NCBI GenBank assembly: GCA_007376135.1
Contig: VMFR01000002.1
Coordinates: 28,870-92,869 of the forward strand
Length of the DNA: 64,000 nucleotides
Origin: Parcubacteria group bacterium Gr01-1014_31
Lineage (GTDB): Bacteria > Patescibacteriota > Patescibacteriia > Buchananbacterales > GWA2-38-13
Reading direction: 5' to 3'
Shown in pieces: positions 10,549-13,500 of the stretch (positions are counted from its first letter, which is position 1; each line of letters begins with the position of its first letter). The notes under the pieces are model-generated. The model saw only the letters and a program-made list of their open reading frames with translations, ran no database searches and had not been told where the DNA came from. The translations under genes and the position numbers were made by a program.

Positions 10549-13500
10549 GGTCAAGATGCATTGGCCTATTAGTACCCGTAGGCTTCACTCCTCACGGAGC
10601 TTCCACCATGGGCCTATCAACCCGCTCATCTCGCGGGGGCCTGTAATGAAATCTAATCTTGGAGACCGCTTCGCGCTTAGATGCTTTCAGCGCTTATCGA
10701 AACCGAACGTCGCTACCCAGCGATGCCCCGGGTGGGACAACTGGTACACGAGCGGTTCGTCCATCTCGGTCCTCTCGTACTAGAGATGGGACTCCTCAAA
10801 TTTCTACGCCCACGAAGGACAGGAGACCGAACTGTCTCACGACGTTCTGAACCCAGCGCGCGTGCCGCTTTAATTGGCGAACAGCCAAACCCTTGGGAGC
10901 TTCTCCACCCCCAGGATGCGACGGGCCGACATCGAGGTGCCGAACCTGGTCGTCGATGTGGACTCTTGGACCAGACTAGCCTGTTATCCCCGGAGTAGCT
11001 TTTATCCGATGAGCTTCCGCCGTCCTATATCGTACGGTCGGATCACTAACTTCCGCTTTCGCGACTGCTCGACTAGTCAGTCTTGCAGTAAAGCAGGCTT
11101 TTGGGTTTGCCCTATCGGCGCGATTTCCATCCGCACCTAGCCTACCTTTGTAAACGCCTCCGTTACTGTTTGGGAGGCAACCGCCCCAGTTAAACTACCC
11201 ACCAGCTACGGTCCCCCGACCGGATTCACGGTCGTAGGTTAGGAATCGCATCGTCCCAGGGTGGTATCTCATTGGCGTGCGCGCTCCGCGCGCAAATATC
11301 GATATTTCGAAATTTCGATATCTGTGTGCGAAGCACACACTCCCACCTATGCTGAACAGGAACGACGTGACACCAGTAGCAAGCTATAGTAAAGCTTCAC
11401 GGGGTCTTTTCGTCCTACCGTGGGTAACCCGCATCTTCACGGGTCTTGCAGTTTCGCCGAGTCCCTCGTTAAGACAGTTCTCAAGTCGTTATGCCATTCG
11501 TGCGGGTCGGAACTCACCCGACAAGGGATTTCGCTCATCTGTTACTCTCTCTCGCGAGAGGGCGTGGTCATTTCTGCCACGCACTGCATGTCGCCATGCA
11601 GATCGGACTATATCTTCTCCACGTTTCGTGGAGTCTGGCGTATAGTCTCTACGGACTTTCCCACTCGACATATCGAAACTTCGAAATATCGAACTGGGGT
11701 TGCCTCGGTGTTGTCCCGCCGCTGGCGGGATGTTCACCGATACAGCCAAATTTTCTCCTACCTCTTCACGGCATCGGTGAAGTTCGGAGGGGGTCTTGCT
11801 CCCCACTAAGGCAGCGTTTTTTCCACCTTAGGACGGTTATAGTTACCGCCGGCGTTCATCAGCGCTTCGGTTCAAGGCTGCCGCTGCCTTGCGGCAGCAT
11901 GACCTCTCCCCTTAACGTTCTGACACTGGCCAGGCATCAGCCCCTATACTTCAGCTTGCGCTTTCGCAGGGACCTGTGTTTTTGGTAAACAGTCGCTTGA
12001 GATCGTTCGCTGCGGGTCCGACGAATCGGACCAGTCCTTATTGCGAACTTACGAACGCTACATTGCCGAGTTCCTTAACGAAGGTTCTCTCGTACACCTT
12101 GGTATACTCTACCAACCTACCTGTGTCGGTTTACGGTACGGTTGCACCACGCTTAACTCTAGAGGTTTTTCTTGACGGCGCGTCGAATTCAGTTGGGTCG
12201 GCCGAAGCTTTCCCTTCCGCCATCCGCCGGAATTCCGCGCGGGGATTTGCCTCCGCGCCATCCAGCAGCCAGCGACGTCCATACCAATAGACGCCAAACC
12301 GTTCGAACCGTGTCACCCCATCGAAAACGTAATGCAGTGCTGGAATATTAACCAGCTCATCCATCGGCTACGCCTTTCGGCCTCGCCTTAGGGCCGACTA
12401 ACCCTGGGTCGATTTGCGGTGCCCAGGAACCCTTGGGTTTTCGGTGGGCAGGGTTTTCACCTGCCGTTATGCTACTTGTGCCAACATTCTCACTTCCGAG
12501 CGCTCCGCCGGCCCTCACGGGTCCGACTTCACCGCCCTCGGAACGCTCCTCTACCACCGACGTCTTCCGGAGAAAACGTCGGTCCGTATCTTCGGTACCC
12601 TGCTTAGCCCCGTTACATTTTCGGCGCAACCCAACTTGACCAGTGAGCTGTTACGCTTTCTTTAAAGGATGGCTGCTTCTAAGCCAACCTCCTGGCTGTC
12701 GGAGTCGGATCACCGCCTTTCACACTGAGCAGGAATTTGGGGACCTTAGATTACGGTCTGGGCTGTTTCCCTTTAGACTAAATGGAGCTTAGCCCCCACA
12801 GTCTTACTCCCGGACGTTTTCGGCACGGTATTCGGAGTTTGATTGGAAGTAGTAGGCTTTCGCCACCTTCTCCCATCCAGTAGCTCTACCCCCGTGCGTA
12901 CCATCCGAGGCTAGCCCTTAAGCTATTTCGAGGAGAACCAGCTATCACCAAGCTCGATTGAAATTTCATCCCTAGCCACAACTCATCCGAACGTTTTGCA
13001 CAGCGCACCGGTTCGGGCCTCCCCCCGATGTTACTCGGGGTTCACCCTGGCCATGGCTAGCTCGCCTGGTTTCGGGTCTTGTCATCGCTGCTGGAACGGC
13101 CTATTAAGCCTTGCTTTCACTGCGCCTGCCCCCTGTCGGGGTTAGACTTGCAACGACGACAAACTCGTTGGCTCATTCTTCAATAGGAACGCCGTCATCC
13201 ACCTTGCGGCGGACTCCGACTCCTTGTAAGTAGATGGTTTCAGATACTGTTTCATCGCCCTCACCGGGCTGCTTTTCACCGTTCCCTCACGGTACTGGTT
13301 CACTATCGATCGCGGCAGAGTATTTAGTCTTAGCGCATAGTCACGCCGGATTCCCACAAGATTTCTCGAGTCCCGTGGTACTTAAGAATACTAGCCGTAG
13401 AGTTATAACCCCTTTCGCTTACCGGGCTCTCACCGTCTATGGCCCCCCGTTCCAGGGGAGTTCACCTAGGGAAGTTATACCGACGGATCGGGTCACCCTA

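What the first reader, a model, noticed from the sequence alone, without database searches (positions are those of the whole stretch)
11536..11815. Group-I-intron-like 280-nt insertion in the 23S rRNA at the helix 69-71 site (E. coli ~1917)
- The minus-strand 23S sequence reads CCUAAGGU, then a 280-nt insertion, then AGCGAAAUCCCUUGUCGGGU. The flanking sequence is otherwise invariant among bacteria.
- The insert begins after a U and ends in G.
- It contains a P7-like pairing, AGACUAUACG...AGAUAUAGUCC, closely resembling Tetrahymena P7, and a GGGAAAG P4-like motif.
- No homing-endonuclease ORF is present, so this is a minimal intron.
- rRNA introns are common in candidate-phyla-radiation lineages. 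Combined with the 23S-5S operon lacking 16S, this is a taxonomic hint.
Basis: partly seen in the sequence, partly recalled or inferred. Interest (0 to 1): 0.55.

Follow-up and report, generated by a model that had tools for sequence, protein, structure and literature searches.

The report
ORF-less group I intron in 23S rRNA
The 23S rRNA gene of this groundwater Parcubacteria (CPR) genome is interrupted by a 289-base group I intron with no homing-endonuclease gene, sitting at a well-known intron site (E. coli position 1931); it is an ordinary new example of a known kind.

Summary
The insertion is real. It is exactly 289 nt (window 11536-11824, minus strand), not 280. It lies after E. coli U1931 (site L1931), not near 1917.

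- **Family match.** It passes the Rfam group I intron model above the curated threshold (57.8 bits against 50; E 4.6e-12).
- **Hallmarks.** It has a P1 helix with the U.G wobble at the 5' splice site, a 4-bp P10, a terminal G, the P3/P7 pseudoknot and the bulged-A/G-C guanosine-binding pair in P7.
- **Covariation.** In nine related introns, 31 of 74 pairs show compensatory changes.
- **No endonuclease.** No ORF overlapping it has a Pfam domain. Longer L1931 introns elsewhere encode LAGLIDADG_1 endonucleases.
- **Distribution.** P1-forming L1931 insertions turned up in at least 119 species genomes from many phyla, so the intron alone is a weak taxonomic marker.
- **Architecture.** This intron has P2-P2.1 and a short P5 instead of the usual extended P5. 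That is a minority form at L1931. The same core also occurs in 16S rRNA introns.

Splicing itself was not tested.

The parts
11536..11824 (-). Complete group I intron, 289 nt, inserted after E. coli 23S U1931 (site L1931)
   Evidence: cmscan LSU alignment shows a 289-nt insertion. MAFFT against E. coli 23S places it after Ec1931. Rfam Intron_gpI scores 57.8 bits on 11584-11814.
11825..11831 (-). 5' exon strand of P1 (CUAAGGU); U11825 is the splice-site U of the U.G wobble
   Evidence: Pairs with GCCUUAG at 11806-11812. The pair is kept in all 8 distinct sequences of A3, including metagenome members that were selected on a different motif.
11806..11816 (-). Internal guide sequence: CGCU (P10 strand, 11813-11816) followed by GCCUUAG (P1 strand, 11806-11812)
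   Evidence: P1 is 7 bp and P10 is 4 bp (CGCU/AGCG); helix 1 has 98% of cells paired and helix 2 has 84%.
11790..11804 (-). P2 hairpin GGGG-AGCAAGA-CCCC; its loop contains a GCAA (GNRA-type) tetraloop
   Evidence: pair 32/44 is AU in 4 sequences and GC in 3. RNAalifold predicts it independently.
11764..11782 (-). P2.1 hairpin CUUCAC-CGAUGCC-GUGAAG
   Evidence: helix 4: 5 of 6 pairs have compensatory changes and 100% of cells are paired. Also.
11745..11750 (-). P3 5' strand (UUUGGC)
   Evidence: Pairs with GCCAGA at 11634-11639.
11705..11740 (-). P4 (UCGGUG/CACCGA) enclosing J4/5, the short P5 hairpin (UCCCGCC-AGC-GGCGGGA, 11714-11730) and J5/4
   Evidence: (P5: 4 of 7 pairs compensatory).
11653..11704 (-). 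P6 (GG(C)/(G)UCC) and the long P6a hairpin; about 29 nt longer than in relatives
   Evidence: Local fold. Alignment A3 shows the extra segment only in the window.
11641..11649 (-). P7 5' strand G-(A bulge)-GACUAUA; G11647 is the G of the inferred guanosine-binding G-C pair
   Evidence: Pairs with UAUAGUCC at 11605-11612. AGAGAC and GUCC are invariant in 19 L1931 introns.
11634..11639 (-). P3 3' strand (GCCAGA); together with P7 it forms the core pseudoknot
11617..11633 (-). P8 hairpin CUCCACG-AAA-CGUGGAG
   Evidence: Compensatory changes in 4 of 5 outer pairs, although MAFFT aligns the inner pairs poorly.
11605..11612 (-). P7 3' strand (UAUAGUCC), preceded by J8/7 (AAGA)
11584..11601 (-). P9 hairpin CUGCAUG-GCGA-CAUGCAG (GNRA loop)
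   Evidence: helix 12: 100% of cells paired and 4 of 7 pairs compensatory. Also.
11547..11582 (-). P9.1 (GCGUGG/CCACGC, 11562-11582) and P9.2 (CUCUC-GCGA-GAGAG, 11547-11560)
   Evidence: helix 13: 5 of 6 pairs compensatory. P9.2 compensates between the window and L041.
11536..11536 (-). Terminal G (omega-G), last intron nucleotide
   Evidence: Read directly from the sequence. The boundary is fixed by the conserved exon junction GGU|AGCG.
11532..11535 (-). 3' exon strand of P10 (AGCG)
10550..13971 (-). Host gene: 23S rRNA (3422 nt including the intron and the domain I expansions)
   Evidence: Rfam LSU_rRNA_bacteria, 2455.9 bits, model positions 1-2925.

Best explanation
Window 11536-11824 (minus strand) is a 289-nt group I intron without an ORF. 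It interrupts the single-stranded junction between helices 69 and 70/71 of the 23S rRNA, after E. coli U1931. The host is a Parcubacteria-group (CPR) bacterium.

Most likely mechanism (inferred):
1. The intron is transcribed as part of the pre-23S rRNA.
2. It folds into the canonical two-domain core (P4-P6 and P3-P9). Peripheral hairpins P2, P2.1, P9.1 and P9.2 are inferred to stabilise this core.
3. The guide sequence CGCU-GCCUUAG pairs with the 5' exon (P1, with the U.G wobble at the cleavage site) and with the 3' exon (P10).
4. An exogenous guanosine bound at the G-C pair of P7 attacks after U11825.
5. The terminal G (11536) then takes the same pocket, and the freed 5' exon attacks after it.
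6. This ligates CCUAAGGU to AGCGAAAU and releases the intron.

Having no homing endonuclease, the intron cannot home by itself. It is most likely a vertically inherited derivative that lost its endonuclease, or never had one, within the widespread L1931 intron lineage.

The sequence, structure, site and relatives are shown here. The chemistry and removal in vivo are inferred.
For: - **Family match.** Rfam Intron_gpI scores 57.8 bits (threshold 50), E 4.6e-12, over the full model 1-253.
- **Site.** A precise 289-nt insertion after Ec1931.
- **Splice-site helices.** P1 is 7 bp with a U.G wobble, P10 is 4 bp, and the last base is G.
- **Covariation.** A hand-drawn P1-P10 structure counted on 9 related introns (alignment A3) gives 89.8% of cells paired, against 36-45% when partners are slid. 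31 of 74 pairs have compensatory changes, and 0 of 500 shuffles reach this.
- **Independent prediction.** RNAalifold recovers P1, P2, P2.1, P3, P4, P5, P6, P9 and P9.1 on its own.
- **Catalytic core.** The P7 motifs AGAGAC and GUCC are invariant in 19 L1931 introns.
- **Stability.** The fold z-score is -6.78.
- **Relatives.** P1-forming insertions at the same site occur in at least 119 species genomes. 71 of 81 insertions longer than 550 nt have an ORF of at least 140 aa. The two ORFs scanned are LAGLIDADG_1, with E about 1e-25.
- **No ORF here.** The four ORFs overlapping the window intron have no Pfam hit.
- **Second assembly.** An ENA assembly contig carries the same intron (2 mismatches in 12.7 kb).
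- **Literature.** L1931 is a recognised group I site in archaea, classed as subgroup IB4 and including ORF-less introns of 250-340 nt (PMC6125680). It is also a recognised site in CPR (PMC11270868). That paper's introduction says CPR rRNA insertions are removed from the transcripts.
Against: - No RNA data were available, so splicing is inferred and not observed.
- The title of Everett et al. 1999 (cited in PMC11270868) reports an unspliced L1931 intron in Simkania. Retention at this site therefore has a claimed precedent.
- The Rfam score is only about 8 bits above threshold.
- The intron lacks the extended P5 domain present in 104 of the 107 L1931 introns sampled, and it has no maturase ORF. 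Efficient folding might therefore need host factors.
- P10 is short (4 bp) and is imperfect in some relatives.
Confidence: 0.88

Rival explanations
1. The element derives from a group I intron but is retained in the mature 23S rRNA, in effect as an expansion segment. This is what was reported for the Simkania L1931 intron.
For: - The title of Everett et al. 1999, cited as reference 28 in PMC11270868, reports an unspliced L1931 intron.
- This 23S tolerates other large insertions, with about 211 extra nt in domain I.
- There are no RNA data here.
Against: - All elements needed for catalysis are intact and covary: P1 with U.G, P10, omega-G, the invariant P7 core and J8/7. That pattern fits selection on ribozyme function.
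- From general knowledge of ribosome structure, the site lies next to H69 at the subunit interface, where 289 extra nt should interfere with subunit joining.
- The introduction of PMC11270868 states that CPR rRNA insertions are removed from transcripts.
Confidence: 0.06
2. The intron is removed but is not autocatalytic. Either it depends on a host or trans-acting maturase, or it is cut out by RNases without ligation, leaving a fragmented 23S as with RNase III-processed intervening sequences.
For: - It has no P5 extension and no intron-encoded protein.
- Its Rfam score is modest.
Against: - The intron ends do not form the long terminal stem typical of RNase III intervening sequences (MFE structure).
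- From memory, the classical intervening-sequence sites are H9, H25 and H45. PMC11270868 places short non-intron insertions at its own sites 23IS2 and 23IS4, not at 1931.
- The guide sequence aligns both exons for ligation.
- From general knowledge, compact group I introns with only GNRA-loop contacts, such as the bacterial tRNA introns, can self-splice.
Confidence: 0.05
3. The insertion is an assembly or binning artefact, for example a chimeric join of an intron-bearing rRNA from another organism.
For: rRNA genes are frequent break and chimera points in metagenome assemblies. The Logan contig ends about 100 nt inside the 23S 5' end, at window coordinate 13864.
Against: - An ENA assembly contig of 85.5 kb (ERZ27284378) has the same 23S, intron and flanks, with 2 mismatches in 12.7 kb.
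- The exon sequence is continuous and scores as one full-length LSU.
- The 23S genes closest to the window's (L140, L041) carry the same intron subtype at the same site and share the domain I expansions.
Confidence: 0.01

Closest known systems
Group I introns at 23S position 1931 in CPR bacteria (site 23IS7 of Tsurumaki et al. 2024, PMC11270868)
   Same: Same host group (CPR), same gene and same insertion position. These were also recognised with the Rfam group I model. That survey classed 433 of 968 insertions in 23S as group I but found only 278 ORFs with known domains, so ORF-less examples are implied there too.
   Different: The paper stresses LAGLIDADG_1-encoding insertions at 1931, and this one has no ORF. 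I could not find this MAG (Gr01-1014_31) in the one supplementary file held.
Archaeal IB4 group I introns at LSU/1931 (Nawrocki et al. 2018, PMC6125680)
   Same: Same insertion site. Several are ORF-less and 250-340 nt long. P7 had to be added by hand because the covariance model cannot represent the pseudoknot, as here.
   Different: - The hosts are archaea.
- The one archaeal L1931 intron I retrieved (L007, Woesearchaeota) goes from P1 straight to P3, with no P2, like 104 of the 107 sampled. The window has P2-P2.1 and a minimal P5.
- Subgroup IB4 membership of the window intron could not be tested because no subgroup models are available.
L1931 introns of Thermotoga (self-splicing; Nesbo & Doolittle 2003) and Simkania (reported unspliced; Everett et al. 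1999), and the organellar I-CpaI-type introns
   Same: Bacterial 23S rRNA introns. PMC11270868 cites them as the known bacterial rRNA group I introns related to organellar ones. Their position at 1931 is from my memory.
   Different: From memory, those carry LAGLIDADG endonuclease ORFs and are about 650 nt or longer. Neither paper could be read here. The window intron is ORF-less and 289 nt.
Coxiella burnetii Cbu.L1917 and Cbu.L1951 (Raghavan et al. 2007, cited in PMC11270868)
   Same: Group I introns in the same H69-H71 neighbourhood of a bacterial 23S rRNA.
   Different: The insertion sites differ.
Compact group I introns in CPR-type 16S rRNA genes
   Same: The core from P3 to P9.1 is nearly the same, including the exact 21-mer UGGCUNUAUCGGUGAANAUCC, GUAGAGACUA, GAAGAUAUAGUCCGA and the CAGAAAUGA loop of P9.1. 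All pass the Rfam threshold at 64-78 bits.
   Different: They sit in a different host gene with a different guide sequence. They have P2 but no P2.1.

Membership tests
Group I catalytic intron (Rfam RF00028) | Covariance-model score at or above the curated gathering threshold | tested here: met
   57.8 bits against 50; E 4.6e-12 in the 64-kb window; model positions 1-253 all matched.
Group I catalytic intron (Rfam RF00028) | P1 helix between the 5' exon end and an internal guide sequence, with a U.G wobble at the 5' splice site | tested here: met
   CUAAGGU/GCCUUAG, 7 bp, with the last pair U.G. It is conserved in the relatives found through an unrelated motif.
Group I catalytic intron (Rfam RF00028) | Terminal guanosine (omega-G) and P10 pairing of the guide sequence with the 3' exon | tested here: met
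   The intron ends ...AGAUG. CGCU, immediately 5' of the P1 guide, pairs with exon AGCG. 84% of P10 cells are paired in A3.
Group I catalytic intron (Rfam RF00028) | Conserved core P3-P4-P5-P6-P7-P8-P9 with the P3/P7 pseudoknot, supported by covariation | tested here: met
   89.8% of cells paired against 36-45% in slid controls; 31 of 74 pairs compensatory; 0 of 500 shuffles reach this. RNAalifold agrees for the nested helices.
Group I catalytic intron (Rfam RF00028) | Guanosine-binding site: a G-C pair in P7 next to a bulged nucleotide | tested here: met
   G11649-C11605, A11648 bulged, G11647-C11606. AGAGAC and GUCC are invariant in 19 introns. The equivalence to Tetrahymena G264-C311 is from memory.
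Group I catalytic intron (Rfam RF00028) | Guanosine-dependent self-splicing activity | not testable with these tools
   Needs in-vitro splicing or RNA-seq junction reads.
L1931 rRNA intron lineage (subgroup IB4 in PMC6125680) | Insertion between E. coli 23S positions 1931 and 1932 | tested here: met
   MAFFT against E. coli 23S gives an insertion after Ec 1931, length 289.
L1931 rRNA intron lineage (subgroup IB4 in PMC6125680) | Best match to the subgroup-specific IB4 covariance model (GISSD) | not testable with these tools
   Only the generic Rfam model is available. The 3' core (P7'-P9-P9.1) is 88-94% identical to other L1931 introns.
L1931 rRNA intron lineage (subgroup IB4 in PMC6125680) | Majority architecture at this site: P1 joined directly to P3 (no P2) and an extended P5 domain | tested here: not met
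   104 of the 107 sampled introns go directly from P1 to P3. The window, L041 and L012 have a P2-P2.1 insert of about 45-60 nt. In the window and L041, P5 is also a simple 6-7-bp hairpin. L012 keeps the majority-type P4/P5 sequence.
Mobile group I intron with homing endonuclease | Intron-encoded LAGLIDADG, GIY-YIG, HNH or His-Cys box ORF | tested here: not met
   Four ORFs overlapping the intron have no Pfam hit at E<=0.01. Control ORFs from L073 and L005 hit LAGLIDADG_1 at about 1e-25.
RNase III-processed rRNA intervening sequence (IVS) | The insert forms a long terminal stem by pairing its own ends; located at the H9, H25 or H45 loops | tested here: not met
   The MFE structure has no terminal stem, and the site is Ec1931. 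The list of helices is from memory.
Group II intron | Match to the domain V / D1-D4 models | tested here: not met
   No group II family appears at E<=1 in 11450-11900.

The most novel reading that the evidence does not exclude
The window intron may represent a distinct compact, endonuclease-free clade of CPR group I ribozymes. In this clade a GNRA-capped P2 (here with an added P2.1) and a minimal P5 replace the extended P5 domain. The same P3-P9.1 core is found at 23S L1931 and at 16S sites. That would imply the ribozyme has moved between rRNA sites by changing only its guide sequence, for example through reverse splicing, independently of homing endonucleases.
Probability: 0.25. Interest if true: 0.35.

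Novelty: new member of a known kind. Interest (0 to 1): 0.2.

Why it matters
It matters mainly for annotation. The 23S rRNA of this Parcubacteria MAG should be annotated as two exons plus a 289-nt intron. Pipelines that extract rRNA for phylogeny or probe design should remove the intron.

The by-products are of modest wider use:
- P1-forming L1931 insertions were found in at least 119 species-level genomes across many bacterial phyla. PMC11270868 describes bacterial rRNA introns as limited to a few species.
- A minority architecture (P2-P2.1, short P5) exists at this site. Its core is shared with 16S introns. This gives a small, naturally minimal ribozyme scaffold that could be tested for self-splicing.

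None of this changes current understanding of group I introns.

Tried and rejected
- **Whole-set alignment.** MAFFT on all 19 ORF-less L1931 introns misaligned the window's 5' half, because most relatives lack P2/P2.1 and have a long P5. I therefore used the subtype-specific alignment A3 for covariation.
- **Taxonomy from NCBIfam.** Most of the ORFs tested had no family hit, so this gave nothing. 23S identity to named loci only suggested CPR. The exact-sequence look-up settled it.
- **Primary papers.** The Thermotoga (PMC196884) and Simkania (PMC93955) papers are not held. I cite them only through the reference list of PMC11270868 and from memory.
- **Looking for this MAG in the CPR survey.** I searched the supplement of PMC11270868 and the literature for 'Gr01-1014' and found nothing relevant.
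- **Bacilli-1 hit.** The weak Rfam hit on 11537-11601 (18 bits against a threshold of 55.6, E 0.14) was rejected as chance. It covers P9 to P9.2.
- **L2.1/L9.1 kissing interaction (P13).** I looked by eye and found no convincing complementarity, so I make no claim.
- **Split GlmS.** The ORF upstream of the N-terminally short GlmS is not a detached N-terminus (read by eye).
- **Mosaic origin.** I considered whether the 5' half is of the 16S-intron type and the 3' half of the L1931 type. The metagenome loci were selected on the 5' motif, so the comparison is biased, and I do not claim recombination.
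Full report
**Observation**

Rfam places a full-length bacterial 23S rRNA on the minus strand at window 10550-13971 (2455.9 bits). A 5S rRNA lies at 10385-10493. There is no 16S rRNA anywhere in the 64-kb window. Read on the minus strand, the gene runs ...AACCGUCCUAAGGU, then an insertion, then AGCGAAAUCCCUUGUCGGGUGAGUUCCGAC....

The cmscan alignment to the LSU model shows one 289-nt insertion at this point. 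A MAFFT alignment to E. coli 23S (locus L001) puts it exactly after E. coli position 1931, with length 289, at window 11536-11824. Three details are off:
- The length is 289 nt, not 280. The 5' end is 11824, not 11815.
- The E. coli coordinate is 1931, not about 1917.
- The 'GGGAAAG P4-like motif' is really the 3' strand of P6a/P6.

**What it is**

The generic Rfam group I model (RF00028) matches 11584-11814 on the minus strand over its whole length. The score is 57.8 bits against a curated threshold of 50, with E 4.6e-12 for the whole window. Nothing else scores there except a chance-level Bacilli-1 hit. The RNA folds far better than shuffles (MFE -116.9 kcal/mol, z = -6.78).

By inspection, checked by script, the intron has the following helices:

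| Element | Sequence or description |
|---|---|
| P1 | exon CUAAGGU with intron GCCUUAG; the terminal pair is the U.G wobble at the splice site |
| P10 | CGCU, immediately 5' of the P1 guide, with the first four exon bases AGCG |
| P2 | GGGG/CCCC, with a GCAA-containing loop |
| P2.1 | CUUCAC/GUGAAG |
| P3 | UUUGGC/GCCAGA |
| P4 | UCGGUG/CACCGA |
| P5 | short hairpin, 7 bp |
| P6/P6a | long hairpin |
| P7 | G-(bulged A)-GACUAUA with UAUAGUCC |
| P8 | CUCCACG/CGUGGAG |
| P9 | GCGA loop |
| P9.1 | GCGUGG/CCACGC |
| P9.2 | GCGA loop |
| omega-G | terminal G at 11536 |

P3' is followed directly by P8, so there is no P7.1/P7.2.

**Relatives and covariation**

I scanned 185,579 species genomes for the 23S exon followed within 4-34 nt by a P1-forming guide sequence. 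The insertions are mostly 620-730 nt. About 18 are 233-332 nt.

Of the 81 insertions longer than 550 nt, 71 have an ORF of at least 140 aa. The two ORFs I scanned are LAGLIDADG_1 endonucleases, with E about 1e-25. The four ORFs that overlap the window intron have no Pfam domain. The intron is therefore genuinely ORF-less.

Only one genome hit (L041) resembles the window intron along its whole length, at 71% identity. The rest share mainly the P7-P3'-P8-P7'-P9-P9.1 half, at 78-95%.

A metagenome scan with the window's P3-J3/4-P4-J4/5 21-mer found more members of the same form at L1931: L124, L128, L129, L142, L150, L153, L140 and L159. On the resulting nine-sequence alignment (A3), my structure gives:
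- 89.8% of cells paired, against 36-45% when the 3' partners are slid by 1-3 columns;
- 31 of 74 pairs with compensatory changes;
- no shuffle out of 500 reaching any of the observed measures.

RNAalifold independently predicts P1, P2, P2.1, P3, P4, P5, P6, P9 and P9.1. The metagenome members were selected on a core motif, not on P1, yet all carry GCCUUAG opposite the exon. This is an independent check of P1. The P7 motifs AGAGAC and GUCC are invariant across 19 ORF-less L1931 introns.

**Architecture**

Of the 107 L1931 introns sampled, 104 pass directly from P1 to P3. This includes the one archaeal example, L007. Only the window, L041 and L012 have a P2-P2.1 module between P1 and P3. The majority type also has a long, branched P5 extension, whereas the window and L041 have a plain hairpin. 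L012 combines the P2-P2.1 module with the majority-type P4/P5 sequence.

The window's core from P3 to P9.1 recurs almost verbatim in compact group I introns inside 16S rRNA genes. Examples are L133, L155, L132, L152 and L125; in L133 and its like the site is GGGAU|. These have P2 but no P2.1, and all pass the Rfam threshold at 64-78 bits. The window's P6a is about 29 nt longer than in its relatives.

I infer that the GNRA loops of P2 and P9 make the usual tetraloop-helix contacts that stand in for a P5 extension. That is inference only.

**Host**

Exact-sequence look-up shows the window's ribonucleotide reductase and the ORF upstream of the 23S gene are NCBI proteins TSC76464.1 and TSC76427.1. 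Both come from 'Parcubacteria group bacterium Gr01-1014_31', on a 300-kb contig. The same sequence occurs in an ENA assembly (ERZ27284378) and in Logan run SRR8863434, which belongs to PRJNA512237 (PMC11549363). The ENA contig carries the identical intron, with 2 mismatches in 12.7 kb.

The 23S exons are 73-75% identical to CPR-type 23S genes (L140, L071, L073, L041, and L093 = Ca. Uhrbacteria), against 65% to E. coli.

The intron itself is a weak taxonomic marker. By my hand count of the record titles, about 40 of the 119 hits are Acidobacteriota. Others are labelled Gamma- and Betaproteobacteria, Chloroflexota, Chlamydiae, Planctomycetes, Actinomycetota, Nitrospirota, Bacteroidota, Cyanobacteria and a Woesearchaeote.

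**Mechanism**

*Shown here:*
- the site and the exact boundaries;
- the conserved, covarying group I fold;
- the guide sequence aligning both exons;
- the G-binding pair;
- omega-G;
- the absence of an endonuclease gene.

*Inferred from the established chemistry of group I introns:*
1. Exogenous guanosine attacks after U11825.
2. Omega-G docks in the same pocket.
3. The exons are ligated, restoring CCUAAGGU-AGCGAAAU.
4. The intron is released.

The junction borders helix 69 at the subunit interface (general knowledge), so removal should be required for a working ribosome. The introduction of PMC11270868 states that CPR rRNA insertions are removed from transcripts. Without an endonuclease the intron cannot home. 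It most likely persists by vertical descent.

**Rivals**

- *Retention in the mature rRNA.* There is a claimed precedent at this very site in Simkania (the title of Everett 1999, cited in PMC11270868). I cannot exclude it without RNA data, but the intact, covarying catalytic elements argue against it (about 0.06).
- *Loss of autocatalysis, with protein-dependent or RNase-mediated removal.* This is possible given the missing P5 extension, but the intron lacks the terminal stem of RNase III intervening sequences (about 0.05).
- *Assembly artefact.* This is very unlikely, given the second assembly contig and the relatives that have the same subtype at the same site (about 0.01).

**Comparison with what is known, and novelty**

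L1931 is a classical group I site. PMC6125680 lists many archaeal LSU/1931 introns of subgroup IB4, including ORF-less ones of 250-340 nt. PMC11270868 catalogues group I insertions at 1931 in CPR 23S genes. It classed 433 of 968 23S insertions as group I but found only 278 ORFs with known domains, so ORF-less cases are already implied. Thermotoga, Simkania and Coxiella are the textbook bacterial cases.

The window intron meets every sequence-level defining feature of a group I intron that I could test. Its IB4 membership could not be tested, and it departs from the majority L1931 architecture. It is a new member of a known kind. The minority architecture and the sharing of its core with 16S introns are mildly interesting, but they are within what is expected for rRNA group I introns.

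**Score**

Interest is 0.2.

Noticed in passing
window 13467-13547, 13565-13616, 13665-13742 (minus strand, 23S domain I): The 23S has three extra segments (+81, +52 and +78 nt) after E. coli positions 293, 276 and 228. The 23S genes of L140 and L041 have insertions at the same places, so these look like lineage-specific expansion segments. No Rfam family matches them.
   Followed up: partly
window 1-64000: No 16S rRNA anywhere in the window. The 23S-5S pair is unlinked from 16S, and the gene immediately upstream of the 23S is a DUF5654 ORF (14309-14626, minus strand).
   Followed up: partly
window 30709-30853 (+): FMN riboswitch (Rfam RF00050, 97 bits against a threshold of 66.2), upstream of a 192-aa ORF at 31012-31590.
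   Followed up: no
L041 (CAZQNT010000029.1), L071 (CAYFMS010000001.1), L073 (CAZGDX010000008.1): Three MAG records titled 'uncultured Gammaproteobacteria' have 23S segments only 61-66% identical to E. coli. They are 71-88% identical to a Ca. Uhrbacteria MAG (L093). True Gammaproteobacteria in the same set are 81-84% identical to E. coli. The labels look wrong; these are probably CPR.
   Followed up: partly
L041 about 3400 (+) and L153 about 8800 (+): In these two relatives the exon downstream of the L1931 intron breaks off after GGGUGAA. This suggests a second insertion near E. coli position 1951. The window's 23S is uninterrupted there.
   Followed up: no
L058 3236-3553, L097 777-1095, L102 5794-6108: Three ORF-less L1931 introns appear to end in A rather than G immediately before AGCGAAAU. 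This could be a non-canonical terminal nucleotide, or a shifted boundary.
   Followed up: no
By my hand count of the titles, about 40 are Acidobacteriota. This is far wider than the 'few species' of bacteria described in PMC11270868.
   Followed up: partly
L133 1632-1836, L155 1833-2066, L132 3825-4039, L152 1923-2112, L125 44-282: Group I introns inside 16S rRNA genes share the window intron's P3-P9.1 core almost verbatim. Some sit at the GGGAU| site, roughly E. coli 788 by my recollection of the numbering.
   Followed up: partly
window 2474-4228 (-): The GlmS ORF matches the family profile only from profile position 66, so its N-terminal glutaminase start seems to be missing or differently encoded. 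By eye, the upstream ORF (4243-5025) is an unrelated protein, not the missing N-terminus.
   Followed up: partly
L041 945-1100 (+): A 5.8S-like Rfam hit (45 bits against a threshold of 42) lies just upstream of the 23S. The 23S alignment there starts only inside the first domain I expansion. The 5' end of that 23S may be split off by a larger insertion.
   Followed up: no
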